A DNA stretch of 59,374 nucleotides, counting the filler, from Dugesia japonica (taxonomy: Eukaryota), in assembly GCA_001938525.1 (NCBI GenBank). It is 6 parts of 6 records of this genome, joined end to end, with 100 filler letters (N's around TTAATTAATTAA, not from the genome) between each part and the next. Parts side by side here need not be neighbours in the genome. Positions count along the whole stretch, not along the records: positions 9,983 to 19,467 come from MQRL01221288.1; 5 more parts are not named here. One strand, given 5' to 3'. The translations under genes and the position numbers were made by a program. Positions 6,167 to 40,311 of this stretch are shown here, piece by piece. Under the pieces are notes generated by a model. That model saw nothing but the letters and a program-made list of their open reading frames with translations. It did not search any database and had not been told where the DNA came from. The first letter of the stretch is position 1. Each line of letters begins with the position of its first letter.

Positions 6167-7747
6167 ATGACTGATGTAATTTCAGAAAATAAACTTATTT
6201 CTAATAGTAAAAAAAGGCGTGACAGAAAAAAGAAAGCTAAAGAAAGAAAGCGAAAAGAATTCGATGTTCTTAAATTAGAATGTATAGAAATTGATGTAGA
6301 ATATCCGACTTCTTTAGATAACATTGTTGAATTTGAATTAAAAGGAAGGTTTGAAAGATTTATAAATTATGAGAAGGATGAATTGAAGAGTGATACCAGA
6401 GATGATCCTAAAAATGCAAAAGTAACAAATGCCCAATCTCTAAATGAATTACCAATGAAAGCCAGAGCAGCAGCTATTTTACAAGATGATCATGATCGTG
6501 ATGAAAATGAAGAGCCGAAAATCGGTAAGAAACAATTGAAAAGAATGAATCGTATGAGTACAGCACAGTTAAAAATCAATGTGGAACAACCGGAGCTTGT
6601 TGAAACGTGGGATTATTGCAGCAAAGACCCTCTCTTGTTATTAGAGCTAAAAAGTATGAGAAACACAGTGCCTGTTCCAAGACATTGGTGTGCTAAACGA
6701 AAGTATTTACAAGGTAAACGTGGGTTTGAAAAACCTCCTTTTAAATTACCGGAATATATTGCAAAAACTGGAATTATGGAAATGAGACAAACAGTACAAG
6801 ATAAAGACAGTGATAAAACATTAAAAACTAAAATGAGAGAGAAAATTCGCCCAAAAGTTGGTCATGTTGATATCGATTATAATAAATTGCATGATGCATT
6901 CTTTAAAGATCAAGTTAAACCTCCTCTTACAATTCACGGGGATATTTATTATGAAGGCAAAGAATTCGAAGTTAAATTAAAAGAGAAAAAACCTGGTCAA
7001 TTATCTGATGAATTGAGAACATCGCTAGGTTTGCCCACTGGTCCAAATGCAGATAAATACCCGCCACCGTGGCTAATTGCAATGCAGCGGTATGGTCCTC
7101 CTCCGTCTTACCCAAATCTTAAAATCCCCGGATTAAATGCGCCAATCCCGTACGGTTGCTCGTTCGGTTACCATGCAAACGGGTGGGGTAAACCTCCAGT
7201 TGATGAGACAGGACGGCCGATTTACGGAGAAGTTTTTCTTGATAATTTGCCTATTCCACCTCCACCTTCAGATGATGATATTGACGGCGATGAAGGCAAC
7301 AAATATTGGGGAGAAATCGAATCTGATGAGGAATCGGAAGAAGATGAAGAATCAGAAAAAGAGGAAGAGGATGACGAGATGGAATGTGANNNNNNNNNNN
7401 NNNNNNNNNNNNNNNNNNNNNNNNNNNNNNNNNNNNNNNNNNNNNNNNNNAGTGTCGGACAAGGTTTGACCACTCCGCAAAGCATTGAGTTACGTAAGAA
7501 AGCGGTGGACGAAGAGTCGATACCAATTGAGAAACCTCTTTTCCAAGTCATACCACAGATCAAAGCTGAGATCGGATCAGCAATTATGGGTTCAGAAAAA
7601 CTTTATCAAGTACCGGAAATGATGGATCTGAAAAATAAGAAGCGAATTGCACCGACTCCTTCTGGAACGACTTCTGGGCAGAAATCGAGTCAGCCGCCTG
7701 AACCAGCAGAACCGAAATCGAAAAAGCATAAAGACTTCAAATTTTAA
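6167..7747 (+). CDS. SF3B2: Splicing factor 3B subunit 2 (SAP145/CUS1 homolog)
   Basis: Hallmark DUF382 and PSP motifs: RNTVPVPRHWCAKRKYLQGKRGFEKPPFKLP, DIDYNKLHDAFF, HGDIYYEGKEFE, PPPWLIAMQRYGPPPSYPNLKIPGLNAPIP, GWGKPPVDE, and the conserved C-terminus KKHKDFKF. An N gap at 7390-7450 makes frame continuity there an assumption. TTCTAG acceptor directly before the ATG, so an upstream exon or leader is possible. Confidence 0.95.
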   Translation: MTDVISENKLISNSKKRRDRKKKAKERKRKEFDVLKLECIEIDVEYPTSLDNIVEFELKGRFERFINYEKDELKSDTRDDPKNAKVTNAQSLNELPMKARAAAILQDDHDRDENEEPKIGKKQLKRMNRMSTAQLKINVEQPELVETWDYCSKDPLLLLELKSMRNTVPVPRHWCAKRKYLQGKRGFEKPPFKLPEYIAKTGIMEMRQTVQDKDSDKTLKTKMREKIRPKVGHVDIDYNKLHDAFFKDQVKPPLTIHGDIYYEGKEFEVKLKEKKPGQLSDELRTSLGLPTGPNADKYPPPWLIAMQRYGPPPSYPNLKIPGLNAPIPYGCSFGYHANGWGKPPVDETGRPIYGEVFLDNLPIPPPPSDDDIDGDEGNKYWGEIESDEESEEDEESEKEEEDDEMECXXXXXXXXXXXXXXXXXXXXXSVGQGLTTPQSIELRKKAVDEESIPIEKPLFQVIPQIKAEIGSAIMGSEKLYQVPEMMDLKNKKRIAPTPSGTTSGQKSSQPPEPAEPKSKKHKDFKF

Positions 7748-8585
7748 TTCCTGTAGTTTAATATATTGTTTTTCGTATTTTTTTCAATAGTATTATTATT
7801 ATTATCCTTCCGATAATTTGCTGGGTAACACACGTTTCGCAAAAAAATTTGGAACGTTTTTTTTTATTTTTAAATATAAAATTAGTTTAAAATTTTGGCG
7901 AATTTTATGTATCTTTTGAGATTTTTTTCTAAGATTTATTTGTGATACACAACTTCACATCGAAAAATATCTAAAATTGCTAATGCTTTTCAATATATAA
8001 AATTAGTTTCAAACTTTTGAAGAACTTTTAACATTCTGTCATTTGATTTTGACGATGAAGAAACCAGTTTAGAGATGACTTTAGAATATTGAAAAGTAAT
8101 TCAACATGGAAATGCCGAGATGTTATCTAGACTGAGATTCCAAGTATGATTACATTGTCAGATGTTCCTTGAGGATGGTGAGAAATTAAAGATCAAAGCA
8201 AGAATATTGTTGGGCTCCGAGGTTTTGATGTTTTATTTCTTCTCTTGGTTTTCGCACTCGATTATCTCGTATTCCTTTTATCTCATTATCTTCTATGGGC
8301 AGATACCCCTGAGCCGGCAGAAATTTGGCAATACTCCATGTTTTGGTCCATCCACCACGAGTCTTGTAATTTTCAATTTTGATTGCATTCGGCTCAACTT
8401 GTTCTTGTGTTATATATNNNNNNNNNNNNNNNNNNNNNNNNNNNNNNNNNNNNNNNNNNNNNNNNNNATTATGACTTATTATAATTGCATACACCATAAC
8501 GCCCATAATTTGTCATTCACTTTGGAACATAATTTTACCCCAATAGTGTTTCAAATGCGAGAGATCCCCCCCAAAAATTTTATTT

Positions 8586-8603
8586 ATCCCGGCTGAGTCC
8601 CCA
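8586..8603 (-). promoter_or_regulatory. tRNA-Pro-like primer binding site of an LTR retrotransposon
   Basis: Minus strand reads TGGGGACTCAGCCGGGAT, a 15/18 match to the canonical tRNA-Pro PBS TGGGGGCTCGTCCGGGAT. It lies 8 nt after an LTR-like end ...GATCCCAACA. Confidence 0.7.
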
Positions 8604-8611
8604 AATTTTTC

Positions 8612-9882
8612 TGTTGGGATCTTATGCAGTGGATGTTAAGGCTCAGAAAACTCATGAGACCCCAACGAGAAAAATGGTAGTAGTTTCCCAAGCTACTTTT
8701 CGTAAGAGAACCGGTGACCCTCATCCGCGCCACGGTGCAGTTCGCCTTACTTTCTTTCGGGTTCTGGGTATGATACTCGGTTGCGAGAGGTAACTTTCCT
8801 GCGCTAATATGCGGCGTGGACCAATCGCTTTATCACATCGAAATTCTATTATATTTAGACACTATCTTATCTTATCATGGTATTTAATCGTAATACTCCT
8901 TTATTCNAATGTATTATCTCTACAACTAGCTGAATGGTTTTATTACTAATGTGCAATTCTACCGTATCTAATACTATATGTTATCTCAACTATTATCATT
9001 ATCAAAATATTCCTTTGTTAGTCAAATCTAACTATTCATTTAGCTATAAGTTACTATTTACTATTAATTTTACTTTATACTTATCACTACTGTCATTATT
9101 TGTCTATAACTCAAGTCAATTACTTAAGTACCTTAGCTATTCCTATAGTTATTTCGTGATTATTTAATTACATTATTCAAATTTGGATTCAGGAACTCAA
9201 CACAACGCATTTTAAAATAAGACATTTATTGCTACAAAATTAGTTTTTATTAGTTCCATAATATTCGGCGAGCCACGCATCTACATCAACCGTATCCCAT
9301 GTTTGTATTGGGTTAGGGATAGGTGATGCTGGCGGCTGAAAAAACATGATTCTCCTGTCATCTGCTAATGGGTTTTCGATAACTTCTGGAGGGTAAGTTT
9401 TCTGATCTTTGATTTGTTTTTCTAGGAATTTAATCTTATCATCCTGTTTATTAATGGTTCGTTCTAATATACTAATTAACTGTTCCTTTGTTTCCTTCAT
9501 GCGTNNNNNNNNNNNNNNNNNNNNNNNNNNNNNNNNNNNNNNNNNNNNNNNNNNNNNNNNNNNNNNNNNNNNNNNNNNNNNNNNNNNNNNNNNNNNNNNN
9601 NNNNNNNNNNNNNNNNNNNNNNNNNNNNNNNNNNNNNNNNNNNNNNNNNNNNNNNNNNNNNNNNNNNNNNNNNNNNNNNNNNNNNNNNNNNCCTTCATAT
9701 TTAACCTGTAACAAAATAATAATAAAACATAAGTTAATTCAAAATATATTTCCCCGCAACCCTATCAATTTATCTGGGAAAACCCCTCCTAAAATAGTAA
9801 CGCATGAGAAACATTCTTAACTGGCCAAACAGACCTAATATATTATTTAAGAAACACTTTAAATAAGACATTACTCACTAAA
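8612..9882 (-). mobile_element. 3' part of a large 5' LTR (truncated by scaffold end) containing an ORF
   Basis: Ends in CCCAACA next to a PBS, with a GC-rich terminal ~200 bp. Architecture parallels 16547-17160. Confidence 0.6.
9240..9706 (-). CDS. LTR-borne coiled-coil ORF of unknown function (KIxFL family), interrupted by a gap
   Basis: TTGTTACAG acceptor at ~9707. Translation LISILERTINKQDDKIKFLEKQIKDQ..WDTVDVDAWL*, with AATAAA ~10 nt after the stop. Similar to 16742-16909. Confidence 0.5.
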
Positions 9883-9982
9883 NNNNNNNNNNNNNNNNNN
9901 NNNNNNNNNNNNNNNNNNNNNNNNNNTTAATTAATTAANNNNNNNNNNNNNNNNNNNNNNNNNNNNNNNNNNNNNNNNNNNN
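9883..9982. other. Artificial scaffold linker (N44-TTAATTAATTAA-N44)
   Basis: Identical 100-bp spacer with stops in all six frames. Recurs at 19468-19567, 28796-28895, 39857-39956 and 49691-49790. Confidence 0.97.
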
Positions 9983-12430
9983 TAATATATTTTTAAATTT
10001 AACGTTAATAAAATTTCGGATAAATTAAAATAAGATAAAATGTATTTATAAAATTCGACGTTAGATAAATTTTAAAATGTTTTGCAAATACTGGTATTTG
10101 ATGTTTTCCGTTTTGAATATGGAATTTTAAATTTGTTTAAGAAAACAAATTTATATGTATAGTTTTTGTTTGAATAAATTTTGTATTGAATTCGAGTTCT
10201 GATATTAATGATCAGACGAGTTTTCCAAATTCATCTAACATGTTGGCAGTGGTAAACACCTATGCGATCACAGAGAGATTGTTGCCAAAAATATTTTGCA
10301 GAGGCGATGATCTATTGAAGTTTATTAAACGGTGTGAAATATATTTTGAAGCAAAGAACATCATTGTTAAGAAAGATCAGGACCGTTGGACAACATGTAT
10401 GCTTCATGAAGATTTAATTGTAGCATATGTGAAGACCAAGAAGAAGTTGACGGAATTCGAGAGAGAACGCGATTAGCTTTTGAGAGCAAGAGAGACGTAA
10501 TAAAAGATTTACAGAATCTTTAAAGCTATCGATGTGGTGATAATGAACTTATGTTTCTTAAAAAAGTCGAAGATTTGGTCGATAAAGTTTAGCAAATTAA
10601 GAGCTGACGGAAGAAAAACTCTTATCAAAAATGCTAATAATTTGTGCAAATAGTAAAAAAGCAGAAGACGAAATAATCATGCAAAAATTTTAGAAAGTAG
10701 AAGATATTAAAGAAACGCTATCATTAGTTGAAAAAATAGAAAAAAGAGAACCTATTAACGTATTAAAGAGTTACGCAGGTGTAACACGTAGATAACGTAC
10801 TGGAGAGAGGAGACAAAATATCGAGAAGGTTGTATAAAGAACAGAATCAGAGTATTGGACATGCCAGAGTTATGAGCATACAAAAAGAGAGTGTCCCAAA
10901 AATTCTCATGTGGAATGTTGAACTTGCCACAAGAAAGAGCATTTAAGTAGAAATTGTCCAGGCAAAAAACCACCAAAATGTTTTGGATGTGGTAAGATTT
11001 TTCATATCAGAAAGAGGTTTAGAGACATTGTATGTGGTGGATGTAAAAGACCAGGTCACAGAGCAGAAGAATGTTATTCGAACATTAATAAAACTAGACT
11101 AGAAGGTAGATACAATTCTAAAAGCGAACAACAAACAAAAGATTGGAGTCGGACCAAACCAATCTATGCCATTCGAGATGAAAATGATGCTGAAAACGAA
11201 GAGATATTTTTGGGAGCATAATAGAAAATGAAGATCCGAGAAGAGAATACCCAAAAAATAGGGCTCCATCAGTAGAGGAGTTGGTCGGAGCCATTCATTA
11301 AACAAGATGCTGTTTGATTATCCTCAAGAGGCTGAGAAATGGAATGAAATGAGTAAAGTTTGAGGAAGTTTCAGTGATGCAGGAGATAACAAAGCGTAAG
11401 TGATATGAACAATTAAAGAGAAACAGAACATAGAAATTTCGTACGATAAAATGCAAGGGAGACTTAGCATTTTAGTAATGATCAAGGGCTAACAGTTTGA
11501 TTGTTTGTTAGATACAGGAGCAAGAATAAATGTGATGAGCATGAAAGGATTTAATAGACTCTGAGAAACAATGTTAGAGAAAAGCGAGGAACGATTGTAT
11601 TGCGCGAATAACAGCTCATTGGAGATGATTTGAAAGATACATGTGGAAGCTGTAGTTTTAGAGGTGTGCAAGGAAGTAACATTTATAATAGTAGAGAAAT
11701 TATTACCCGATCTAATTGGCGGAGTGGAATCCCAAAATAATTTTGGGTATCATCTTCCAACAAAGTGTAAGGCAGATATCAACAATTATCGAGAAAAATT
11801 GGTTTGCAACATCGAGTCAAAATGTGGAACACAGATACAGACGGGTGAACGATTGAGACATGCAATGGAGATATGTCAATTCATACGGAATTAGATCAAA
11901 ATTTTTGGACACGTTATCAGTAAAGAAGTTGTCAAAACAGATCTAACTAAAATAGAAGCAATTAAGAACTTTGATAAACCAAAATGTGTTAAGAAGATGA
12001 AAAGCTTTTTGGGAATTATCAATTACTATCGCAAGTTCATTAAAGATTATTCGAAAAAGCTAGATTGCTGGAACAACTGTGTAGTAGATCGAGTAACAAG
12101 AAGATTGAATGGCGAACGATTTAGAAGAAGTTTTTAATGGAATGAAAGAAGCACTAATAGTGTCTCCAATGTGTTTTCCAGATATAAATAGAGGATTTAC
12201 TTTGGACACGGATGCGAGTTTCAATACGATTGGGACAGTATTGTCTTAAAAGGACAACAATGGACAAGAAAGACTAATTGCAAATGGGTCACACGCAATG
12301 ACGAGTCACGAGAAAGGAGATTGTACTACGCGGGAAGAATTACTCGCAATTTACTATTTCTGTATTTATTTCAAACATTACATATATGGAAAGAGATTTA
12401 TCCTCAGAACAGACGATAAAGCTATAACTT
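9983..12430 (+). mobile_element. Degenerate Ty3/Gypsy LTR retrotransposon (LTR end, PBS, gag, protease, partial RT, RNase H)
   Basis: LTR end ..CATCTAACA at 10240, then PBS-like TGTTGGCAGTGG. Gag N-terminus and several CCHC knuckles (TCQSYEHTKREC, CFGCGKIFH, CGGCKRPGHRAEEC). Protease CLLDTGARINVM at ~11500. RT thumb FGHVIS..SFLGIINYYRKFIKDYS. RNase H FTLDTDAS and EELLAIYYFCIYFKHYIYGKRFILRTD. RT catalytic core is missing. Confidence 0.9.
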
Positions 12431-15072
12431 TGTATGTCTCACCGAGAATAAAAAATTATTTTTTCTGGAAATACTTATGATAATCAAATATATTCGGTTT
12501 TGTTTAACTCAGAATTAAAATCCAAACATATTTCCTATAGGGTTTGCTGAGCAAATGTTTTTGAATGAAATTTTGTGTTTTGGTTATTTTCCACAACTCT
12601 TTCTAAATCCATTAAAAGCATCGAACATATATAAGTTACTGCAAGCTAACGAATATAGTAAACAATATTTAAATTAGTTAATTTCGCAGACAATTGATGA
12701 ACCTTTTAGTGAATAATAATGTTGGGGTGAAACACCCAGTTAAGAAGAAATCAAGGCCAGGGGCCCAAATCATAAAACATCGAAGACGGTGGTTGGAAAG
12801 AAAACGCAGGGGAAAGAATATAATAATCAATCAGTAAAAGAAATCGAAAAGAAAAGCAATTATAAATAACTAATATTGTTAAAATATAACAAAAAATAAT
12901 CAATCGGAAAATAAAAATATAAAAAGAAGATGGATATGGAGATCTTGAGTGAACAAAAAATTTAACCAGCAACCATGCCAGTAATTAAAGAAAATTATCA
13001 AATTAATAATAAAAGACAAAAAAATTATTATAATTAATTTTCACAGAAAAAAATAATTAATTTGGACGGAAAAATAAATTGAAATTGAACGAAAATCAGT
13101 TTTTAGTGATTATCTCCGCTCGACATACTCACAGAGACTCGTGGAAAGAAAATCTAGAAAGAGAAAGATCTGGGGCAATAGGATTTGTCAACCCAAAAAT
13201 CGTAGCATCATCGGGAAGGTCCCTACAAGGGTTAGAAAAATGGGCCAATAAGGGGCCAGAAAAGGAAAATAAAACAAAGACGAGATCATCACATGGCACT
13301 ACAAAATTAGTCACTAATGGAAGCCAAAAAATCAATGAAAAATCTAAAAAAATTAGCACTGGAACCAATGAAAGACCATAATTTTGAATCAAAAATAGAA
13401 GCCAAATAGCAATGATGTTGAGTTGTATCTGGGAAACTATATAAGCCCCATGAAAATTAGAAGAAAAATACACATTTTTCATAAATTGTAAACTTCTGAT
13501 AGTTATTGTAGCATCTCTGAAATTTATTGGACTATCGAAGAGAAAACTTTTCTATTACTATCAACGGTGTGAATTATTTGAAAACACTTTGTTGGGCAAA
13601 TTGGTAGAATCGATCAAAGATTAATTTCGGCATAGTAACATTGGTCAATTATTCAGTGGATTTTTAACGTTAACTTATTACAGATCAAAATAGTCATGTG
13701 AACCCGAGAAAAATACTAGTGAACCATCATTCAGAATTTCGTCATAAAGAAAACAGACCTATTTACTCGTTCCCGTTGCAGAAAATCGTAATTATTCAGT
13801 AAGTATTCAGCCTGTTATAAAATTCGTTTTGAAATCATGAATTTTGTTTATGTAATAAATACTTGTCAAATGAAGTCTAGTTACTACATTATTAATAAAA
13901 TAAGTGTGGCATTAATCATTAATTTAATATTTATTTAGGATCTGTTTAAGTACTGCAAACATTTGGTTTAAACAGAAAATCATTAGTCAGTAATGACTTT
14001 CTTTCATTCTTGTTACTATTTTTAGCTATCATTGATGTGATTATGGATTAAAGGATGAAATTATCTAGTATGGTAGAGTCGTTGTTTAACCAGTAGTCAC
14101 CACACGCATTGCCATATGAACTAATCCAATCGTTAGGACTACTGCACTCATTTCACAAAGGTATGATAAATCAATAAATGACCTCATTGATAAATAACGT
14201 GACATACACACAGGACATGTGTGTATCAACAGAAATCTCTGACACAGTCATTATGCTAACAAGAATATTAGAATTGATTTACATCTTAACTAGTATCAGC
14301 TAATATCTTTATTTGTCTCATCAATAGATTCTCGACCAGAAAAAGAAGAAAAAACAACCACTTTTATGTATCAAGCAATGGCCGCTATTCTGTAAAATAT
14401 CACCTAAAGGATTTAGGGAGGCACCAATCTAATATGACTTTTTTTAACTAAGTGAAATTCCATGTTTGACTTGGGTATTCAGCCTTCACACAGATGGTAT
14501 TCGGTAATTTGATGATATTTGGAAATCATGAAAATATGGATTTAAAACAACATCAACTATAATTTCATCCTGGGACTCACACAATAATGTGGGTTGAGAG
14601 AATCAATAGCGTTCTACCATCAAGGAAAGTATATTGTTGTAATCACAATATATGTGGACTTGATTTTATCTTATTACTGATTTTGTCATATGTAGTAAAG
14701 GGTATATGGGTAATTAGATTTCAGTTGAATTATTTTGTTATTTAATGTCATTAAAAAATTTTTTTTCTTTTCATCATAATTTTATAATTAAATAAAGTTT
14801 AGCGCATGGTTGTAGTTAGCAGTTCAAAATACAGCTGTAAATGAATAACCGAGAAGGTTTTAATCCCCTACTGATAACGAGGGTTTGCTTCAGTTAATAA
14901 ACGGACGTTACCATTATATTTTCTATGATATAAAATTTTGCTAGCACATGGGGTTCACTCATCCTGTTACATTGATTCCAGCCGAAAAAAACTATTTTTA
15001 ATTACATCATTACCCACTAGGGGATAGGGTGATTCTACTACTTATTAATAATCAACTTTCATACGTTTAGTA

Positions 15073-15258
15073 ATGACAATAGAGCTCAGTTATGCCCTCC
15101 AGATCATCCGAAAGCAGCGACGAGTTGCTCGCCGAAAACAGCTGCTGGCCTACATTTTTTCTCGCAGAACCGTCGAGCATCCCGACGAGACGGATCTTAG
15201 CTGTTTCGTTGAGATGTTCCCTCTGAATGTTCAGGTGGGTATCGACACAGAAATCTGA
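15073..15258 (+). CDS. Small protein of unknown function, DETDL family copy 1
   Basis: MTIELSYALQIIRKQRRVARRKQLLAYIFSRRTVEHPDETDLSCFVEMFPLN. Acceptor AG at 15069-15070, AATAAA at 15290. Paralogs at 29741 and 30511. Confidence 0.6.
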   Translation: MTIELSYALQIIRKQRRVARRKQLLAYIFSRRTVEHPDETDLSCFVEMFPLNVQVGIDTEI

Positions 15259-15387
15259 AAGTAGTATCGTTAACGTTTTATAAAATAATAATAAACTTAT
15301 TGAATCTGTGTTGGAGTTTCTTATAGATTTAATTTATATATTAGCTAAATTCCTTTTTATAAACCTAAACCCATTTTATTTTTCTAG

Positions 15388-15724
15388 TGAATCACAAATG
15401 GGAAGTTTTGTTGGACCAACGCACTGGTCGCACAATATTTAGGAAGTACACGAATCCCTACAATCGGATTGATGGCGTCTTAGTAGATTACTCGAATTTA
15501 CCTAAGAAGGAGGCTGAGAACGAGCAGGAATGGGTCGAAGCCGAGCGCCAGGCTTTTTATACTTGAAATGGCTCGGATCGAACCTGAGAAGTATATCATT
15601 CCATCACCGCTTTCCCGCCTATAAATACTGGGGAAATTGGGACTGCCAGCGAATGGTGTTCAGGTCCATTAGTGATCCCTATCTCAGTCGAGCACTTACC
15701 ACCCTACACGAGATTATACAGTGA
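15388..15724 (+). pseudogene. NPYN-family module (frameshifted)
   Basis: Acceptor AG at 15386-15387. Translation KWEVLLDQRTGRTIFRKYTNPYNRIDGVLVDYSN, with a second internal RMVFRSISDPY repeat. AATAAA at 15729. Confidence 0.5.
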
Positions 15725-16107
15725 CATAAATAAAACATTATGGGATCTGAGAAATATCGCTGACGGGGGCGGATCCGAGAATGATGCACCAAACAATGGG
15801 ACTTGACTTTTATAATGTCATTAGTTATTTTTATCAAACGCTGTAGTAATAATAATAATTTGTTGTATTTTCAGCACCATTCTTATATCTTGTAGTTTAA
15901 TTAGGATTTTAATTTTTATCAAATAGGAATTAGTCGTAAGAAATATCTCGTTTAACTCGAGACTGATAATTTTTGAAGGTGTGTTCTTTTGTCTTCACTA
16001 TTGAATTATAAACCTCGCAAATGTTTCATTTTTATTTAGTCCATTCCTCCTTAACTCGTACCATAGCACTCACCAAAAAGTTGCGAGAAGTCGACGAGGA
16101 CTAAGAA

Positions 16108-16398
16108 ATGACTTGGGACCTATACCGTCTAGCGAAAAGGCGATGGAAAGCAGACGTTGCTAATTCCACTAGTAAAGTGAAAAGATATAAGGCCAAGTGC
16201 CTCACTTTTAAAAAGGAAGTCGAAGCCTCACACGACCAAGAGTGGGTGTGGAAAAGACAGATAGAGTCTTTCAGCGAAGTCATCCGGTCCTACCAAGACC
16301 GAGAGAATAAACTGGTCGATGATATTTTGAAATTACGGAATGATCGGCCGCTTGAACCCCTTTTGGTAGACAAGAGTACTCAAACTTCGCGGTCTTAA
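16108..16398 (+). CDS. Basic coiled-coil ORF of unknown function inside the LTR-like unit
   Basis: 96-aa ORF, GC-richer than its flanks, with heptad-like character. Acceptor AG at 16038-16039 and AATAAA at 16428. Confidence 0.5.
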   Translation: MTWDLYRLAKRRWKADVANSTSKVKRYKAKCLTFKKEVEASHDQEWVWKRQIESFSEVIRSYQDRENKLVDDILKLRNDRPLEPLLVDKSTQTSRS

Positions 16399-16741
16399 CT
16401 TTTTTAAATGTTGTGTTTTGTCTTTTAAATAAATATCGGGTGTCTAAAGTAATTCATTTGCGTTCATACAGGTGACGGTGATGGGGTCCCCGTTTAATTT
16501 TATGGGATAAATAAATTATATTCTGTCATAATTTCTTATTCGTTTAGTGCCAAGGATCCGATTCCCTACAAGTCTTAAGCGATGTCACCACCTGATACAA
16601 TAATTATTGGTAGAGAGACATGTTAAACGACAGAAGTAAATGGCCTTACTAAAACATCTGTCACAACGTAATAAGTTAATCAAAAAGATGGATGTGATCG
16701 TGAAAAAGTAGAGTGACCTGGCAACGCAAACCAAACAACTC

Positions 16742-16909
16742 ATGCAAAATAAGATAGATTTTTTGAAACATTATATCTCCGACCTGTCTCGTCAACTAGG
16801 CCACATGTCCTGTTTACAATGGGACGATAACGACGACACGGCGGTGTTCAATTTTATACCAGAAGAGCCTACCCAGTGGTTAGACACGGGGGCTATGGAT
16901 CTAATGTAA
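16742..16909 (+). CDS. KIxFL-family small ORF (likely 3' part of a module starting at acceptor 16547)
   Basis: MQNKIDFLKHYISDLSRQL..DDTAVFNFIPEEPTQWLDTGAMDLM*, with AATAAA at 16917. Resembles ORF 9240-9500(-). Confidence 0.45.
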   Translation: MQNKIDFLKHYISDLSRQLGHMSCLQWDDNDDTAVFNFIPEEPTQWLDTGAMDLM

Positions 16910-18289
16910 ATTTAGAAATAAATAAATCTTAGTTTTTAATTTTTCCTAATCGTTATAAGTGAATTTGAAGAAGGGAAACCAAAGAACCCAAACTAAAGGT
17001 GTACGAGTGTGAACCTCCCGTAAGGGTTGGAGGTCAACCGCTCAACATTGAATATCTAACACATGGACGTTAGATTTAAATTCTTGAAAGGAATCCCCTG
17101 AGGCCCGTTTTTCCCCAGCCAGCGTTCCTTTTCACCGTCAGCTCAGGTGGAACCCCAACAATAATATTGATTTCGACAAAAAGGTTGAAACTTTATTGAA
17201 TAATTATAAATCTAATAAGACTTTGTCAAATGCTGGGTCATTTATTTTATCGATTCTTGAAGCTTTTAAAAGGTTTAAGTATATAAAAAATATATAAAAA
17301 GATATCAAATATGAAAACAAACAAATGAAATTATTTTCCGTTGATTTTTTTGTAACCTAAATTATCAAACATGTTTATGGAATTTAATTAAGATAATTAG
17401 TGTCTAGTGTTAGATACTTGTTTACAATTATAAATTAAATAAAAACAATCTACACTTTTTAATGCATTATCATTTATTTAAAAAAATGAAATATATTGCA
17501 ATCAATATAATTTTATCTTCAGTTATATGACAATCTTAGTTCTTCAGTTTCTTTAAATGATTTTGAAAAGATGCGTTCCAGATCAAATGTACCAGAAGCC
17601 AAAAATAGTAAGTATTTCTAGTATTTAAGCCATTTAATAAATTAAAATTAAAGCAAATTATTAATAATAACAAATTAATTAAATTATTAATTACAATTTT
17701 AAATGGCATGAATTTCATGATTTAAATCAAAAATCACATTCTACAATAGCCAAAATATTTAATGTTTTTTAGTTAAATTAGCAGTGAAATGTAAAAATTA
17801 TTATTAGATTTCTAATCATTAAGCTATTAACGCCCAAAATAAAACTACAATTGAAAATACTGTTTATTTACTATTTATTTAAACAAAACAAAAAATAGTT
17901 TATTAAAAGAAATTCAAAAAAATAAATAAAATATTACCTAGCATGCAGTAAATGAAAAATATCGTCACAATAATATTTTGTTTTAATACAGTTTAATTGT
18001 AGACAATAATCAAAAATAAATTTATCTATATTATTATTTTTAAGAAAAATATAAATATCTTACCTGAATAATCTTATAATTTTTAATTTTTATATAGCAA
18101 ACTCTATTTTTAAAAAATTGAGCTTTTAATTCTGAGTTCAATGATTCCAAATTTGAAATTGTACGATAAACATGGACCGAGAATATTCGAATTTCCAACG
18201 AGCTAAAATTCGACCAATAAAATTCGAAATCGAAAATATTATTTACTAAATCAAAATCCTACATTTTTAAATAACTCAAATCTTTCGAT

Positions 18290-19290: not shown

Positions 19291-21059
19291 ATCCCCAACC
19301 AAAAAGCTTGAAAAATTTGTTACCACATGAAAAGCCTAATAACTACTACGGCTTAAAAAGCCAAAAAAAGTTTCCCAACTAAATGCACAGGGAAATACTA
19401 AAACAGTAAAGTAATATAACTTAGTATGATGCATTTTTTAAATTCCTAAATACATGAATTAGGATTANNNNNNNNNNNNNNNNNNNNNNNNNNNNNNNNN
19501 NNNNNNNNNNNTTAATTAATTAANNNNNNNNNNNNNNNNNNNNNNNNNNNNNNNNNNNNNNNNNNNNAATCATATAAGAAATATGTGCAGATTTAAATTC
19601 TGCGTTTAAAAATATCCATTTTGCTATTTTATCATAAGTATTTCTCGAAAAAATAATTTTTCATCCTCCGTGAGACATGGAACCTGGGAATTTTCTATCT
19701 TTTGAACAAAAAATATTTTTACAACAAACCTTACACAAAATTTGCTTGGAATTATATTCTGAAATTTTAAAAAAAAATAATTATAAAAATAAAGAAAAAA
19801 AAATAATTATAAAAATAAAGAAAAAAAAACTAATAATAATAATAAAAAAAAGGTTTCAAAAAAATAAAACTTAAAAAAAAATAAATAAACCATAAAACAA
19901 AAATTTATTTATAACAAGTAAAATGCAGCTATATTAAAGATAAAGAAACATAAAAGCAACTATAATAAGGAAATTGCAAATTGAATTCAACTATAACAAA
20001 GAAAATACGACATGAATTCAATTAAACAAAGAACGTGAGTCATATTTGTGCAACATTAATNNNNNNNNNNNNNNNNNAATGCACGATAAATCAAAGTTTT
20101 AATAAGGTTTCTTTAGAATATTATTGGATTTTATAGGTTATATATATAGTTTTTTATAGAGATTTAAAAGATTTTATTAGTTTGAAAATGTTTTTAAAGT
20201 TCATAAGATAATTTAATTTTAATAAATTAATAATTAAAAAAATTTTAATTTATCAATAAATTAATTTTTTTGTAAGTATGTAAAATTAATTATTATTATA
20301 TAGAAATTATTTATTTATTTTTGTTTAACTAAGTTAAATAAATAAAATGGTAGATGACCTTGAAAATCAATAATTATAATTGATAATTATTTCATAATTC
20401 AATTACAAAGTAAGTGACCATTTATTCGTTAATTTATTTTAATGATTTTTTTTATTCTAGATGAATTCAAATGAATTCAAAGAAAAATATTTCAACAAAC
20501 ATGACTAGAAGCCTAAACATGGTAAGTTTGATTAATTACTTTATTGTTATTGATTTATCTTTTAGACTGAAAAAGTAAATGATGTGTCTAAGGAATTTTA
20601 TGACAATATGACAAAAGAATTTATAAATAGAGGTTAGATTTATTAAGATTAAATTTTAGGTTAATGACTTTCTTTAATAATTATATATTAATGATTTTTT
20701 TAAAATTTGATTATAATTTCATTTCATTTTATAATAATAACAATATAATAAAACAATATAATAATATAATTACCATGTAATCACCTTATAAAACCCCATA
20801 GAAAACATATTGAAGTTAGTAAAATATTTTTCCTGAAATTTATGAATATTTGTATGAACTTTGTATATTTTATTAATAAAATTATATGTAAATTGTACAT
20901 ATTAGGTGTATAATTGGGTTTTGAATGTTCTTAATACATTTAATGTATGGATTTCTTTGAATTATTTGCGTTCATGTAATGTAATAATTGAATGTATGCT
21001 GTTTGTTGTTTCATTGAGTGCATTGGGTTTATTGCACGATTTTCTTAACTCTTCTAAGG

Positions 21060-22650
21060 TTTTCATAAACCCTATATACTCATAAACCATGCAATACATG
21101 GTTGCTATGTTAATAATACAAGGTAACTATGCAAATAATACACTCGTAAGCCTTAAATTACACGGTTAATATGTAAATAATACACTTTTAATATTTAAAT
21201 AATAAAAGGTAACTATGCAAATAATACAATCATAAACATTATATTACACGGTTAATGTGTAAATAATATACTCATAAACCCTATAATACACGGTTACTAT
21301 GCAAATGATACAAAGTAACTAGGTAAATAATACACTCATAAACCCTAAAATACATGGTTAAATTGTAAATAATAAAAGGTAGCTATTCAAATAATATAAT
21401 CATAAAAACTATAATTCAGGGTTACTATGTAAATAATACACTCATAATCCTTATAATACATGGTTGCTATGTAAATAATATAATAATATACTCATAAACT
21501 CTATATACTTATTAACATAATCATAAACATATTTTCTTATAAGTTGTTATATAGACTTATTAGTTATGTATGAAAATGTTCCATGAATTTATGATTTTAT
21601 TTTGAAAAGGTTTTTTATTATTTTGTATAGAAACATTCCCAGCTAATATGTTTTTATGAAAAATTGTCACTACTTATATGATTTTATAGAAAAATTGACT
21701 AAGTCTTGTAAAATTTTATTATAAATAAATACTAAATTAAAAACTAAAAAATAAAACAAAGACTGAATAATAATACATTTATTTCTGAACATAAATCACC
21801 GGAAACAAAAATAATTGTCATAATTGAGAAGATAATTCTGATGGTTCTACATGGTAATCATCAGATTAAACTTAGTGCACCCAAAACAATCAGGTGCGCA
21901 AATATCAGCTGCCATATAGTAATATACCACTACTTCTGGAAGAAACGGTTGTATTTCTTCGTCCAGGATCCCCAATTCTTCGCATATTTCAACCAGCATT
22001 CCTGAATTCAATTTATTAATAAAATTAAAAAATTAATAAAAATCAAACCTATCTTACTAAACTAAAGATATATATGAAAATGTTACACACTTATAAATCA
22101 TATACACTCAAAATCCCTATTATATACATACAAATATTTACTTACAAAGTATTTATACAGTAATTTTCAGTAATATATGAAATAGTTTCTACACTCATAC
22201 ATCATATAAACTCGAAAAACCTATACTACATAGTTGTTCAGTAAAAAATACAATGCAAATATATAAATATTACACTCTATTATGTTATAAATGTTATAAC
22301 CCTATATAACATTGTTACTATGTATAAAGTAAGCCTTAAATTACACGTTTGCTATATATATAATTCCTTTAAAAGTCTTATATTTTATAAACCTTATATT
22401 TTATGGTTGCTATGTAAGTATAACACTCATAAACTTTATAATACATGATTACCAAGTAAATAATACCAGTTAACTATGCAACTAATACAAAAAGAAATAC
22501 ATTAAACAGTTGTTATTTACATATTACATAGTACCTAAGCAAATAATACACTTGAAAACCTAATATTACACGGTTACTATGTAAATAATATACTCATAAA
22601 CCTTATATTTAATGGTTGCTATATAAATAATACAAACATAAATTCTATTC
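21060..22650. repeat. ~42-bp minisatellite (GGTTACTATGTAAATAATACACTCATAAACCCTATAATACAC) with 21-bp half-units, in two blocks
   Basis: About 10 copies at 21060-21510 and further copies at ~22200-22650. Confidence 0.85.
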
Positions 22651-22729
22651 AGTCATAAACATATTTAATTATTAAGTATTTTTACAATAGTTTTAGGTTA
22701 TATATGTTTCTCACTCGTAAAATCCTATA

Positions 22730-23600: not shown

Positions 23601-24310
23601 GAGTGAGAAAAGAAAATCACCAGTATGAATCTACTTACGTAGGGCAAAGATTCTTCTAACACATTCGCTGAAGTATGGGTAAGAAAAAATTATTATGAAA
23701 ATGTAAAATTTATTTTCAAAAAACTATTACAATAAATATATCATTTATAATTATAAATAATTATATTTTATTTTATAAAAATATTTGGTTATAGGTTAAA
23801 GATTTATTTGATATTAGTCTCACACAAATCATGCCGCATTAATATAGCCGTCTGTCCATCATGTTTTCTAATAATACTTAACGGTTATTAAACCAATATT
23901 AATCGCTATAGTTCTACTCTTCTTCAAAATGCTTTCTACTTTTTCAGCTATTAAATATTTCAGTACTTTGCACCATGAAAAAGTTTTATTTCTATTAGCC
24001 ATATTTTATTCGTAGTCAACAGCAAAGTTGAGAAAATTGATGGATGAGTTGCAATTCTAATTCTACAGATATTTGGACTTCCAAATTCTAAGGTTAGTGG
24101 GGCGAGCAGTACTAAAACCTGTTGATGATGTTATACGCAGTGAACATTCGTTTAAGGATTCAATCAAAAATCAAGTAATGAATATGTTGTTGAATGTGAA
24201 GAAAAATCTACTTAATGCTTTAAAGGAAGTTTTTAATGGACAGCATAAAAGTGAAATACGTTAACAAAAAAATAAAATAATATCGACTATAAGCAAAAGA
24301 CGGTGATTAA

Positions 24311-25578
24311 ATGGAACCATCTTTCCAAAAAAGCATGTATACCAAAAAAACTGAGTTATCGTATTTTGACCATAATATACTACATGTTATGGTTGAAAGC
24401 TTAACGTTTAAAGAAATTTACTAAAATGATTTAATAACTGGGTATGCTGGACAACAAATTGAGTTCAATATTATTGGTTCAGATAATGAGTACTTGGATT
24501 TCAATGATACATTGCTAATTATCAGAATGAAGACTGTTAAAAATGATAAAAAGGATTTTTCATCAACTGGCAATACTGATATGATTCCATTTAACTATTT
24601 CTTTCACATTATATTCAAAGAAGCATCATTAACGCTAACTAATATTAAGGTTGAAGATACAAATGATATGTATATGTAAAATGCGGGAATTGGAGGAGCT
24701 TTGAATTTTGGATCAGATACAAATAACACGTTCTTTGAAGTCTTTGGTTATCATAAAGAAGATAACAAGAGAAAAGGTGGGATTAAAAAGTCTGTCAAAC
24801 TGACGCTCTGTGGTGCACTTAATTTAGATTTTTATGACCTCTCAAAGTATTTGTTGCCAGGATTCAATCAAGTTGACGAGAAATATTGGTTCAGTAATTT
24901 ACAAATATACTAAATGCACTGGTGAAACAGCTGAGATTAATCCACAACGATATATTATAGAAGCAAATTTAGTAGTGTGAGGTGTTTGCGTTGATCAATC
25001 GGTTATAACTGAACACCTTCAAGGATTGGAACATCAAAATGCAATCTAAATTTTCCAAATTACAAACGTCGTACATTTTAAAATTCCAAAAAACTTAAAT
25101 GGAGAAAATAAAGATAATCTATTTTCAGGTGAAAGATTACCGAAATTGGTTTTGATTGCTTTTCAATCATCGAAACAAGCAAGTTGTGATTATGGGTTAT
25201 TTTGCTTGACATTTTCAAATTTCAGTGTAAAGTCAATATGCTTGGCAAGAAGGGTTGATTACCGAGAAACATATTTTACTGACTTTGATACCGACTATAC
25301 CAAAGCATATGTACAATCAATTATTCGTAACATGGGTCAGTTAAATGTAGATCAAAATAATGGTATTACAATGAAAGAATTTAAAGATTTATATACGTTA
25401 TACAATTTTGTATTGGCTCCGGACATTGCTTTTAATCAACCGTATTTACCAAAACATAGAAATTTCAAGTTGAATGTGTGATTCCATAAAGTCCTGGAAG
25501 AATCAGTAACAATGTATGCACATAGAGTATTTGATTCGGAAATGTCAATCACCACAAATGGATTAGTATGTGTGTATT
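24311..25578 (+). pseudogene. Polinton-type double-jelly-roll major capsid protein, pseudogene
   Basis: ATG at 24311. Fragments KTELSYFDH, IEFNIIGSDNEYLDFNDTLL, LPKLVLIAFQS, YVQSIIRNMG..NNGITMKEF and NFVLAPD. Many stops and frameshifts. Confidence 0.85.
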
Positions 25579-25621
25579 GCATAGCAAAAATTATTAATGG
25601 TTTTTTATAAAGAGATTTGTT

Positions 25622-25975
25622 TTGATTGATATTACTTTTCAGATTGAAGCAATATTGAAACGTGAGTTGGTTAGTAGCCGATTCAAAATAGTGTATCTAT
25701 TGTGACGATTTCCAGACTTTTTCCCAAGTGAACCTTATGTAATCAATACACATACATCGAATTTAGATGGTGAGCAATAAATTGCCATTTCTGTNAAACC
25801 AAATTTTACTCGTTTATTTGATTTAATAGGTTTATTTTATTCACCAACAATGGTAACAAAATTGGATCGTATGCAACAGCATGCCGAACACAGTCAAATC
25901 ATGAATCAGATTCCTTCGACATTCTTATGTGGACAATATGGTATTGAATTGCTCAAAATGGAACCGTCATTAATT
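25622..25975 (+). pseudogene. Adenain-like cysteine protease, pseudogene
   Basis: YVINTHTSNLDGEQ*IAI (catalytic HW lost), LFD and FLCGQYG. Homologous to 41616-41972. Confidence 0.8.
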
Positions 25976-29740: not shown

Positions 29741-29936
29741 TATAATATCTGAGATTCTGCAGGACACTATAAGATTCATTCGACAAGAAAGAGAAAGGTC
29801 ACGCTGCAAACAGTTGATTGGACATATTTTGGCGCCTGATCAGATATTGTTCCTTGATGAAACCGACTTAATCTTTTTTGTCGAGTTATTTCCATTAGCG
29901 GCAAAGATGAGGGTGTATTTGGACGCCCCCTCATGA
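29741..29936 (+). CDS. DETDL family copy 2
   Basis: After acceptor TTGTTGTAG: ILQDTIRFIRQERERSRCKQLIGHILAPDQILFLDETDLIFFVELFPL. Followed by an NPYN module (TSRMVFKRPANPYNTLAGVLVDRSN, ~29955-30050) and AATAAA at ~30235. Confidence 0.55.
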
Positions 29937-30510
29937 TTTTAATGCATTTTCTGATTTGACGAGCCGAATGGTATTTAAGAGACCAGCCAACCCATATAAT
30001 ACCCTAGCTGGTGTCCTCGTAGACCGTTCGAATATGGACCCCTCCTAGGCAGATTTTCAACGTGGCCGTGATATGTCTGAACGATGGTTGCATCGTCACT
30101 GGCCCAATGAAAGAACTAAATCCCCGATCACTCCGTCTACTCCAACGCTAGCCGATTTGGAAGATTATCTTCAGCCCCCATGTTCATCATCTTAGTGACT
30201 TTTACCATTAATCTGCAGTGTTGCATGTGACTCGTAATAAATTTTATTAGTTGTCTCTATCGTTACATAATGCTTTATAAAAATTAATCCAATGATCAAT
30301 TTTATTTATTTATTTACGGGGGCTATCATTATGATAATCATAGTTATTCTTAACATTTTTCTGAGGACATCATTATTGCAGGATTACCGTTATGCGTACT
30401 AATAGTAATCATTATTAATCCCATCTTTAAAATTCAGGTTCCCGAAGACTTTCACAACCAAATCGTCGGCAGTTCCAGCTACTAACTTTTATAATTTTCT
30501 TTCTAGAATT

Positions 30511-30687
30511 ATGCCTGATGTTATATATAATACATTGCGATTGATCCACAAAGAGAGGAAGACAGCCCGTCAGCGACAATTAATCGCACATATTATGTTC
30601 CCAGGAAAGGTAAGGCATCCAGATGAAACAGATCTAGCCTGCTTGGCTGAGATGTTACCCTTAAACCCGGATTGTAACAAATCCTGA
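30511..30687 (+). CDS. DETDL family copy 3 (58 aa; absent from the ORF track)
   Basis: MPDVIYNTLRLIHKERKTARQRQLIAHIMFPGKVRHPDETDLACLAEMLPLNPDCNKS*. Branch-like ACTAAC at 30481, acceptor AG at 30505-30506, AATAAA at 30720. Next acceptor at 30820-30821 opens an NPYN module (TGRIMFRHLRKPYNRD). Confidence 0.6.
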   Translation: MPDVIYNTLRLIHKERKTARQRQLIAHIMFPGKVRHPDETDLACLAEMLPLNPDCNKS

Positions 30688-32998
30688 ACTTTTGCTGTTG
30701 TTGTATATTTAATAGTAATAATAAACCGCTCAGTTAATTTATTGAGTGTTACATTATTCCTTTGATTTATTTGAACGATCTTTTATTTACCCACTATTTA
30801 GTTAATTAATCTCTTTTATAGTGTCCGAATATAGATGGCGACTGATATGCACTCCACCGGTCGAATAATGTTCCGTCATTTGAGAAAACCCTATAATCGG
30901 GATGCAGAAATCTAGGCCGATATTATACATGAGATATTAATTTGAAAGTAGGCAACATCGATTGAATCAAAAAACGAAAGTCAAGTAACTGATAATAATG
31001 TTGAAAAGTAGTTTAAATAGTCCGAATTGTAATGCGTGGGAAATGAAATGATGAATTATTCAAAATTCTGAATGTTCAAATTGATCGAAAATGAATGTTA
31101 TTGAATAAACAAACGACAATTTATCAGAGAAGAACAATAATGTTTATCAAATATATCAAGGATATAATTATCATTATGAAATTTTGTTGTTTCGGGAGCA
31201 CGGTCGGCGAATTTTAGTATATAACTGGAAGATTATTACTTTAAATTTAATATACTTTGGAAAATTATTGATCATGAAATGGCACTCCAATTATGTAAGT
31301 ATTTATTGCATTGTAATTCTTATAATGTTCATTTAAAATTTGGCGCATTAATATTTTTTATTGATATGCGCATAATTAATAATTTATTTTATTATTATAA
31401 TGTTCGACCAGTGTATATAGTATATGTTGGATTAAAGGAATTTTGGTAAATGATTTTAGTAAATACATTTTAGTAAATTTTGAGTAATGTTTTTGGTAAA
31501 CAATTTGATTAAAGAAATCAAGTAATGCGTTTTCTGTAACGATTTTGGTAACAGTTGAATTAACATTGAAGTAATAGTTTTATTAATTGAGCACTGGAAT
31601 TTATTTTGACTTATATTTTATATAATTTTGTTGATATGAAATTAATTAAAGTTGTGCTAAATAGATCATTTAAAATCGACCTGTGTATAATAATTATAAA
31701 AAAAATTGTAACTTATGTATAAGTATTTAGTTAATTAAATGCTCAAAATGATATAATTATTATAATTCAAGCATGTAGAGAAATAGAAAACGCAGAGCGC
31801 ATTCAGATAAACTATGGTGATATCCAAAATAAGTTTTTAAACTGCAATAATTATTATTTTAATGAAATTGTGGCGCATGTTTTTTCTACATACAATCACA
31901 CCGTTAATAATATAAATAATCTGTAGTGATATAAACCCCCCTTTATTTTAAAATATATTTATGTTAAGATTGCCTGTGTACATTCTTTAAAGTTAAAACA
32001 AAACTTTTGTCACTTGGGAAGAACACCATTTTTACATGTTTTAAAATTTATTTATTCAATGTTACGCTTTTAAATTATTTTCTACAATGTGTTGAAATTT
32101 TAGCTTCCTTACTATATTTCACATGTCTTCGAATAAAAACGAGCTTTGAATCCTGATTCGCTATTGTTGAAAACGAGAACTTTCGACTAGGGAAGCTGAA
32201 AAATAGATATTTGGTGAATGCAAAATGGTCGTCTACGAAAACTGTTTCACGTTGGTAAAATTATTTTCATACTAGTGACATTAATTTGGAAGACTAGCTA
32301 TATTTTACACCATTTAACTTTAAACTTTCCTTATCAATGTAGCAGTTTTAACAAGGTTGTCGATTCAAGTCATTTGAGGAAGTTGAAGAAGCATGAAAAT
32401 AATTCTTCGAATCAAAACCCAAATAATCGTAATTTAATAAGATTCGGACGACTAGATTTGATTGCAAAAATTTGTTGAGAATGATGAACTTTATTTTGAA
32501 AAGAAGTAATTATTTTTATAGCAAAAAGAAAGATATGGATTGGTTTCATAAACCTTTCCAAAAATGTCTAGTAACTTTGCTCTATCTCAATAATCTGAAT
32601 TAATTAATAAGATGAATCATTTCACTTTATATTTTTTAAATTTCTCTTTTGCATAACTCTTTTCATCTTACAGAATCAGTTTATCCAATATATAAAAATA
32701 AATTAACAATAGAAGCAATATTTGAAAAAAAGAAATAAAATTTCAAAATCTGTAACTTATTAAAAAAAAATATTTACTCATTAAAATACAAAAACGAAAA
32801 GGAAAATAAACAAAATATAAAAAAGAAAATCAAAACTGTATATATAAGGAAATTCCACAATTTATCCAACAAAATGTCTGACAAATAATCCGAAAATTAT
32901 ACAGAAAAAATAAGAAACGTTTACAGTCAAAATTCAAAGAATAAAATCTAAAAAGCAAAAAAATATAATTAATAATACAATAAGTCAAACAAGAATTT

Positions 32999-40304: not shown

Positions 40305-40311
40305 CGATAGG

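What the first reader, a model, noticed from the sequence alone, without database searches (positions are those of the whole stretch)
15061..16922. Serial 'acceptor - short ORF - stop - AATAAA' modules: a virus-like alternative-last-exon or trans-spliced array
Four modules in a row each begin with a pyrimidine-rich AG (15070, 15387, 16039, 16547) and end with a stop plus AATAAA (15290, 15729, 16428, 16917). The same pattern recurs at 29740, 30506 and 30821 and at 9707(-). This suggests one promoter and leader producing different small proteins by choice of terminal exon, as in adenoviral late units, or an operon resolved by SL trans-splicing. I know of no described retroelement system with this layout.
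Basis: partly seen in the sequence, partly recalled or inferred. Interest (0 to 1): 0.8.

Follow-up and report, generated by a model that had tools for sequence, protein, structure and literature searches.

The report
Small-gene cassette inside a giant LTR
Four decayed small protein-coding units, each starting at a splice-acceptor signal and three ending at a poly(A) signal, sit inside a 4.4-kb mobile insertion that is likely the lone terminal repeat of a giant retroelement, which would make several small proteins from one leader by choosing among final exons, as adenoviruses do.

Summary
The modules are real coding units. They are GC-rich, have homologues elsewhere in the window and one in a public assembly, and relatives differ mostly at silent positions (13 of 26 listed differences synonymous, about 21% expected). 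Acceptor position, acceptor phase (B) and AATAAA position (A) are kept between copies whose proteins are about 45% identical. It has TGTTGGGGT...ACCCCAACA ends, a 4-bp target duplication, and an empty site seen in public contigs, so it is most likely a giant solo LTR (Burro-like; planarian host inferred, not shown). All four acceptors are phase 1, and B, C and D lack an early Met, so they need an upstream phase-1 leader; the flatworm ATG-ending spliced leader would not fit. The upstream part of the insertion is spliced in two runs, and one contig ends exactly at its only GTAAGT donor. No leader-to-module junction was seen, and contigs read unspliced through the spacers. Module B's claimed end is wrong. 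Verdict: a real, apparently undescribed small-ORF cassette in an LTR; choice of last exon is plausible but unproven.

The parts
12720..17160 (+). 4,441-bp insertion holding the array; likely solo LTR of a giant gypsy-type retroelement
   Evidence: 9-bp inverted ends, 4-bp duplication; contigs of the host repeat join 12698->17161 and 12632->17234, and relatives of 16984-17160 stop aligning at 17160
12716..12719 (+). left target-site duplication ATAA
17161..17164 (+). right target-site duplication ATAA
12720..12728 (+). left end TGTTGGGGT (fits the TGTNR pattern of gypsy termini)
   Evidence: pattern from PMC2836005 passages
17152..17160 (+). right end ACCCCAACA, inverse of the left end
13439..13634 (+). 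upstream exon, candidate leader exon 1 (5' end unknown)
   Evidence: exact-match spliced contigs in runs X7 and X10
13635..13683 (+). 49-nt GT-AG intron, removed in contigs of two studies
   Evidence: joints 13634->13684; sequence
13684..13798 (+). upstream exon, candidate leader exon 2; followed by the only GTAAGT of the insertion at 13799
   Evidence: X7 contig ends exactly at 13798, X10 contig ends at 13788; donor count. The phase-1 frame of this exon holds 4 stops in this copy
14706..14715 (+). candidate minimal coding leader ATG-G followed by GTAATT (phase 1); untested
   Evidence: 1 of 5 candidates listed; contigs cross it unspliced
15071..15295 (+). module A: acceptor, 61-aa ORF with own ATG (15073-15258), AATAAA at 15290
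   Evidence: 43% and 33-34% identity to copies at 30.5 and 29.7 kb, 50% to P0001 with the same start and end; AATAAA at the same distance in the 30.5-kb copy
15388..15806 (+). module B: phase-1 acceptor, Met-less coding block of about 140 codons, broken by a stop and frameshifts; no AATAAA after its end
   Evidence: 41-45% identity to copies at 29.9 and 30.8 kb; acceptor and phase kept at 30821
16040..16433 (+). module C: phase-1 acceptor, 119-codon charged frame with one stop, AATAAA at 16428
   Evidence: synonymous excess in relatives; relatives abundant in contigs and raw reads
16372..16386 (+). KSTQT, matching the dynein light chain LC8 binding motif, near the end of C
   Evidence: only (K/R)xTQT in 118,744 six-frame codons of the window; motif from abstracts in the listing; one relative changes the Q codon
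16548..16922 (+). module D: phase-1 acceptor, 120-codon frame with three stops, AATAAA at 16917
16960..17160 (+). 3' block of the insertion: further AG|TG acceptor at 16959, two short hairpins (17013-17034, 17055-17074) and an AT-rich box; heavily represented in relatives
   Evidence: loose ends of relatives show the second hairpin with other paired letters (read by eye); whole-block fold not better than shuffles, z -0.31
29741..30198 (+). related copy: A-like and B-like frames adjacent without spacer (frameshifted), AATAAA 37 nt after the B-like stop
30507..30912 (+). related copy: module A (58 aa, stop, AATAAA), spacer, start of module B (truncated)
9225..9707 (-). unit of similar layout (acceptor, ORF with assembly gap, stop, AATAAA); relation to D not shown

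Best explanation
The array is a decayed set of four small protein-coding exons inside a 4.4-kb insertion with inverted TG...CA ends and a 4-bp target duplication, likely the solo LTR of a giant gypsy-type (Burro-like) retroelement, and it likely works by splicing one upstream leader to one of several last exons, each closed by its own poly(A) site. Shown: insertion ends, duplication and empty site; coding of A-D; conserved acceptor, phase and AATAAA between diverged copies; a spliced upstream exon pair from this copy. Inferred: that the insertion is an LTR; that the host is a planarian; that a promoter in the 5' third drives a leader ending in phase 1 which supplies the start codon to B, C and D (A has its own); that a poly(A) site is used mainly when its acceptor is used, so unspliced RNA reads through to give full-length element RNA; that the products are accessory proteins acting on the host (C would bind the dynein light chain LC8).
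For: Ends, duplication and empty site. All four acceptors are AG|T in phase 1 to the least-broken or homologous frame (chance of one shared phase about 1/27). First in-frame Met: none in 120 codons of B, codon 24 in C, codon 32 in D. B's acceptor and phase are kept in the 30.8-kb copy; AATAAA lies 31 vs 32 nt after the A stop in copies 43% identical. P0001 starts and ends where A does, and its last 11 residues include none that an xGT codon could encode, so A is not an internal exon spliced to B there (inference from codons). In relatives, 14 of 26 listed differences fall at third positions and 13 are synonymous, against 6 of 25 and 4 of 26 in the other frames. A spliced contig ends exactly before the only GTAAGT of the insertion. 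Unspliced read-through is what a retroelement needs for full-length RNA.
Against: No GT-AG joint into any module acceptor among 158 contigs and 93 raw reads and 441 contigs. Only 18 of 90 and 24 of 386 loose-end rows were shown, none at an acceptor. Contigs of this copy and of relatives cross the A acceptor and the A-B and C-D spacers unspliced. Three raw RNA runs (6-26% read) gave no read at 99% identity or more. The two other A copies have phase-2 acceptors. The phase-1 frame of the exon before the 13799 donor has 4 stops. B has no AATAAA after its true end. At 29.7 kb, A and B are adjacent with no spacer, so an A-B fusion exists or existed. Four other TGT..ACA pairs with an 8-9-bp inverse match and a duplication occur by chance in the window (5 of 177 pairs). 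No gag-pol could be linked to the insertion.
Confidence: 0.5

Rival explanations
1. Same LTR context, but the cassette lies in U3 and is expressed only from the 3' LTR of a full element. A distant leader from the 5' LTR or the internal region is spliced to each acceptor, and the promoter and R region lie in the 3' block at 16984-17160 (the foamy-virus/HIV nef arrangement, recalled).
For: The 3' block has hairpins and an AT-rich box and is the most abundant part in relatives. No convincing phase-1 coding leader was found inside the insertion.
Against: This solo copy itself yields spliced RNA upstream of the array in two runs, which points to transcription starting within or before the 5' third.
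Confidence: 0.2
2. The modules are exons of one ordinary multi-exon accessory gene (phase 1-1 exons), and the stops and AATAAA lie in introns or arise by decay.
For: Uniform phase 1 is typical of shuffled symmetrical exons (knowledge). A and B are adjacent at 29.7 kb. A has phase-1 GT near its end in two copies (codons 56 and 55). D could be followed by a 54-nt intron to the acceptor at 16959. A planarian GLT2 probe, read by eye, shows a similar spacer with no AATAAA on the coding strand.
Against: P0001 ends where A ends and cannot carry a phase-1 GT there. AATAAA position is conserved. No phase-1 GT near the ends of B or D; the one near C's end is lost in a relative. Relatives' contigs keep the spacers.
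Confidence: 0.15
3. An operon resolved by spliced-leader trans-splicing.
For: Short spacers of 129-233 nt holding poly(A) signal then acceptor look like operon spacers; planarians have SL trans-splicing (PMC12582326 passage). A has its own ATG.
Against: Reported flatworm leaders end in ATG. Read in phase 0, B starts with a stop and C and D close after 4 and 15 codons. Conserved residues of B lie upstream of any Met. The host is inferred, not shown.
Confidence: 0.07
4. The insertion is a non-autonomous DNA transposon (Ginger-like) or another virus-like element rather than an LTR, carrying captured small genes.
For: TGTNR ends and 4-bp duplications also mark Ginger elements, some with introns (PMC2836005 passages). 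No reverse transcriptase is linked.
Against: The inverted repeat is 9 bp, against 40-270 bp (Ginger1) or about 50-180 bp (Ginger2). No transposase match in the ORFs scanned.
Confidence: 0.08

Closest known systems
Burro/GYPSM1 giant gypsy-like LTR retrotransposons of planarians (PMC6431247, section 7 read in full)
   Same: Multi-kb LTRs implied (internal region up to 25 kb, total over 30 kb); virus-like accessory coding; active in planarian RNA (passages).
   Different: The section read describes accessory domains in a giant polyprotein and upstream ORFs, not a cassette of small spliced ORFs in the LTR. No sequence comparison with Burro was possible.
Adenovirus major late and E3/E4 units (recalled, no call)
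   Same: Several 3' splice sites and several poly(A) sites in series, giving different proteins from one transcript.
   Different: Here the unit is in a chromosomal mobile insertion, the leader must carry the start codon for three of four ORFs, and use of the sites is not shown.
Retroviral ORFs in or next to the LTR: foamy bel1/bel2 and fish FLERV acc1a/acc1b/acc2 (PMC5512871 passages); HIV nef and MMTV sag (recalled)
   Same: Small accessory ORFs of unknown fold, some paralogous, at the LTR end of a retroelement.
   Different: As recalled, those RNAs share the single poly(A) site in R; here A, C and D each have their own AATAAA and all four lie wholly inside the repeat.
Planarian transposon GLT2 (probe row in the supplement of PMC8532177)
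   Same: By eye, the opposite strand of the probe shows an AT-rich spacer, a TTTAG|TG acceptor in phase 1 and a charged frame without an early Met.
   Different: No alignment was run; its forward primer does not match the window; no AATAAA seen by eye in that spacer; the class of GLT2 was not found in print.
Ginger DNA transposons (PMC2836005 passages)
   Same: TGTNR ends, 4-bp duplication, introns.
   Different: Inverted repeats 40-270 bp and an integrase-like transposase; neither found here.

Membership tests
Gypsy/Ty3 LTR retrotransposon (solo LTR) | TG...CA ends with short inverted repeat (TGTNR) | tested here: met
   TGTTGGGGT...ACCCCAACA, 9 bp; pattern
Gypsy/Ty3 LTR retrotransposon (solo LTR) | 4-6-bp target-site duplication and an empty site | tested here: met
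   ATAA on both sides; contigs joining 12698->17161 and 12632->17234
Gypsy/Ty3 LTR retrotransposon (solo LTR) | Occurs as a direct-repeat pair around gag-pol, with PBS and PPT | not testable with these tools
   no genome held; no related loci in viral or metagenome collections
Burro elements | Planarian host | tested here: inconclusive
   organism is coded; AT-rich DNA, 49-nt intron, 680-930 million letters of DNA-run contigs, and a by-eye likeness of the Polinton remnant to a planarian probe fit but do not prove it
Burro elements | Multi-kilobase LTR | tested here: inconclusive
   4,441 bp fits the size implied, but LTR identity is inferred
Burro elements | Giant gag-env-pol polyprotein; sequence similarity to Burro1-4 | not testable with these tools
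   no Burro sequence available; original paper not held
Ginger DNA transposon | Terminal inverted repeats of 40-270 bp | tested here: not met
   9 bp only
Ginger DNA transposon | Integrase-like transposase | tested here: not met
   no match in the ORFs of the insertion that were scanned: 13061-13378(+), 13132-13551(-) and pieces of A-D; shorter frames not scanned
Alternative-last-exon unit (adenovirus-late-like) | Series of 3' splice sites, each with its own ORF and poly(A) signal | tested here: met
   in sequence for A, C, D; B lacks a poly(A) signal after its end
Alternative-last-exon unit (adenovirus-late-like) | One leader spliced to each acceptor in RNA | tested here: inconclusive
   no such joint seen; candidate leader contig ends at a donor; tables truncated
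Alternative-last-exon unit (adenovirus-late-like) | Cleavage and poly(A) after each AATAAA | not testable with these tools
   contigs cannot show ends; no raw reads on these sites
SL trans-spliced operon (flatworm type) | Each ORF readable from the leader's terminal ATG or its own ATG | tested here: not met
   phase 0 closed or short in B, C, D; no early Met
SL trans-spliced operon (flatworm type) | SL sequence on the 5' end of each mRNA | tested here: inconclusive
   no loose end at an acceptor among the rows shown

The most novel reading that the evidence does not exclude
A family of giant retroelements carries, inside its LTR, a self-contained adenovirus-style expression cassette: one promoter and coding leader, four or more alternative last exons with their own poly(A) sites, and orphan proteins including an LC8-binding one. 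Every solo LTR left in the genome is then a ready-made four-protein gene, and splice-coupled poly(A) choice switches the element between accessory mRNAs and full-length genomic RNA.
Probability: 0.38. Interest if true: 0.82.

Novelty: new variant of a known kind. Interest (0 to 1): 0.62.

Why it matters
LTRs are normally treated as non-coding control regions with one poly(A) site. A multi-gene, multi-poly(A) cassette inside an LTR would explain why some invertebrate LTRs are several kilobases long. It would pose a testable question of how full-length RNA passes several poly(A) signals. It would also mean that solo LTRs seed expressible small host-acting proteins across the genome. Planarian retroelements are switched on tissue by tissue when PIWI is lost (PMC8532177 passages), so existing knock-down animals make the test easy if the host inference holds.

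Tried and rejected
No whole genome was held. Word-based protein searches with A, C and a B alignment found no relative. The HMMER scan with the A profile gave 3 hits; P0002 and P0003 are repeat-driven and were dropped. Pfam and PHROGs gave nothing above cut-off for the modules. The A model (two helices, mean pLDDT 82) had no Foldseek match at E<=0.001 in viral or PDB libraries; the VIA searches were not run. Viral and metagenome scans were empty. Rfam and tRNA scans found nothing above threshold. The ESM Atlas did not answer. Earlier findings of this scan: none returned. No listed holder was on record as RNA; this blank is no evidence on expression, and the 'RNA?' labels are guesses, so DNA may be in those contigs. 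Parts without cover were not used as evidence. D versus the 9.2-kb unit, C versus D, and the second halves of B were not significantly alike. A hammerhead ribozyme and a minus-strand ORF at 17077-17204 were considered and dropped: one-base length changes in relatives, and 17161 onward belongs to the host repeat. No matching ends with a duplication were found around the 29-31-kb or 8.5-9.8-kb clusters. The gypsy remnant at 10.2-12.4 kb was rejected as the parent, since it lies outside the duplication. Searches for a description in print; none listed such a cassette (listings and selected passages only). The original Burro paper and the Terminon paper were not held, Repbase was not available, and one supplement of PMC11410931 was unreadable; any of these could already annotate these ORFs.
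Full report
Setting. The window is AT-rich eukaryotic scaffold DNA with assembly gaps. It holds an SF3B2 gene without visible introns and many decayed mobile elements. No genome was held. The organism is coded in the run list. A planarian is my inference from base composition, a 49-nt intron, the size of DNA-run assemblies and by-eye likeness to planarian transposon probes. It is not shown.

The observation. The four acceptors are there and sit at sharp AT-to-GC steps. Only 4 of 68 strict + strand acceptors precede a GC-rich block, and all are module acceptors. A, C and D end in a stop followed by AATAAA after 31, 29 and 7 nt. AATAAA by itself is common here (0.23 per 40 AT-rich nt), so the weight lies on conservation. 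B does not end at 15729: its frame and GC-rich block continue to 15806, with no AATAAA after it.

The modules code for protein. A has copies at 29.7 and 30.5 kb, and B has copies at 29.9 and 30.8 kb. A profile of A found one real relative among 1.84 billion representatives: P0001, 60 aa, 50% identical, with the same first Met and the same end. For C and D I took the differences listed for relatives (40 of 106 and 40 of 261 rows were shown). I kept the 26 inside C and D, after leaving out one in a split codon and three in codons that are stops in this copy. Of these, 14 are at third positions and 13 are synonymous, against about 21% expected and 6 of 25 and 4 of 26 in the other frames. No Pfam, PHROG or fold match was found. 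C ends in KSTQT, the only (K/R)xTQT in the window's six frames. It matches the LC8-binding motif given in abstracts. One relative changes its Q codon.

The signals are conserved. In the 30.5-kb copy, whose A protein is 43% identical, AATAAA lies 32 nt after the stop against 31 here, the spacer is 134 against 129 nt, and the B acceptor keeps AG|TG and phase 1. All four acceptors of the main array are AG|T and phase 1. B has no in-frame Met in 120 codons, C has its first at codon 24 and D at codon 32. So B, C and D need an upstream exon that ends in phase 1 and supplies the start. A has its own ATG, and its acceptor is phase 2 in the other two copies. Reported flatworm spliced leaders end in ATG (PMC12582326, passages). 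That would read phase 0, which is an immediate stop in B and closes after 4 and 15 codons in C and D.

Contigs in two runs join 12698 to 17161 and 12632 to 17234, and relatives of 16984-17160 stop aligning at 17160. At these edges lie TGTTGGGGT (12720) and ACCCCAACA (17160), flanked by ATAA on both sides: a 4,441-bp insertion into another repeat. Such end pairs occur by chance too (5 of 177 pairs with an inverse match of 8 or more also show a duplication), but this pair is GC-rich and coincides with junctions defined independently by the contigs. The ends fit the TGTNR pattern of gypsy elements, and the inverted repeat is too short for Ginger transposons (PMC2836005, passages). No long internal direct repeat was found. 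I read it as a solo LTR. Its size fits the multi-kb LTRs implied for planarian Burro elements (PMC6431247, section 7 read), but membership could not be tested.

RNA evidence, for and against. An exact-match contig with a 49-nt GT-AG intron (13635-13683) occurs in runs of two studies. In one it ends at 13798, the base before the only GTAAGT in the insertion, as an assembly would where one donor has several exits; in the other it ends 10 nt earlier. The phase-1 frame of that exon has 4 stops in this copy, and five other ATG-plus-phase-1-donor candidates exist, among them ATG-G|GTAATT at 14706. No joint into a module acceptor and none between modules was listed among 158 contigs and 93 raw reads or 441 contigs. 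Contigs from this copy and from relatives about 90% alike cross the A acceptor and the A-B and C-D spacers unspliced at depth 2-9. Three raw RNA runs gave no read at 99% identity. More distant relatives of C and of the 3' block are abundant but align only over short stretches, so their 5' joints cannot be seen. The RNA label of the contig runs is a guess.

Mechanism. Most likely the LTR carries an accessory cassette: promoter in its 5' third, spliced leader, then a choice among A, B, C and D as last exon, with the poly(A) site used when its acceptor is used (terminal-exon definition, recalled). Unspliced RNA would read through to give element RNA. The coding, the conserved signals and the insertion are shown; the leader joints, the poly(A) use and the LTR identity are inferred (0.5). 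Rivals: expression from U3 of a 3' LTR with a distant leader (0.2); one multi-exon gene (0.15), helped by the spacer-less A-B copy at 29.7 kb; a non-LTR carrier (0.08); SL operon (0.07).

Novelty. Accessory ORFs at the LTR end are known from foamy-like viruses (PMC5512871, passages), and serial acceptors with serial poly(A) sites from adenovirus (recalled). Eight literature searches (listings and selected passages) showed no such cassette inside an LTR. The original Burro paper, the Terminon paper and Repbase could not be seen. I rate it a new variant of a known kind, interest 0.62.

Noticed in passing
window 6168-7747 (+): SF3B2/SF3b145 splicing factor gene, one frame of about 525 codons with no visible intron, crossing an assembly gap.
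   Followed up: partly
window 10174-12420 (+): Decayed gypsy-type element: zinc knuckles, protease-like and RT/RNase H pieces; cut at about 12420 by a short repeat shared, inverted, with 19573-19678.
   Followed up: partly
window 12540-12719 and 17161-17260 (+): The repeat into which the 4.4-kb unit inserted seems itself coding, with a frame that runs on across the empty site in relatives, and is well represented in RNA reads. Identity unknown.
   Followed up: partly
window 23998-25953 and 39986-41947 (+): Two decayed copies, 77% identical, of a Polinton/Maverick-like capsid and protease region (weak Peptidase_C5 hit E 0.09; by-eye likeness to a planarian Polinton-1 probe).
   Followed up: partly
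window 8547-8830 and 8189-8416: GC-rich block ending, on the minus strand, in ...AAACA at 8547, downstream of the 9240-9707(-) unit: possibly the 3' end of a second large LTR. Next to it a frame that by eye resembles an integrase tail, with no Pfam support.
   Followed up: partly
window 17055-17074 (+): Six-pair hairpin whose counterpart in several relatives has other letters that still pair (loose ends, read by eye).
   Followed up: no
window 13939-14326 (+): Exact-match contig of depth about 110 in run X7 inside the insertion, far above its neighbours; may be a nested repeat or separate transcript.
   Followed up: no
window 44052-44522 (-), 1455-2018 (-), 48756-49061 (-): Rolling-stone family fragment; hAT dimerisation domain; BED zinc finger.
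   Followed up: no
window 21074-22675: Degenerate 22/42/64-bp tandem repeat arrays.
   Followed up: no
window 9883-9982, 19468-19567, 28796-28895, 39857-39956, 49691-49790: Assembly gaps of 100 bases with a TTAATTAATTAA linker between two runs of 44 N; an assembly mark, not biology.
   Followed up: yes
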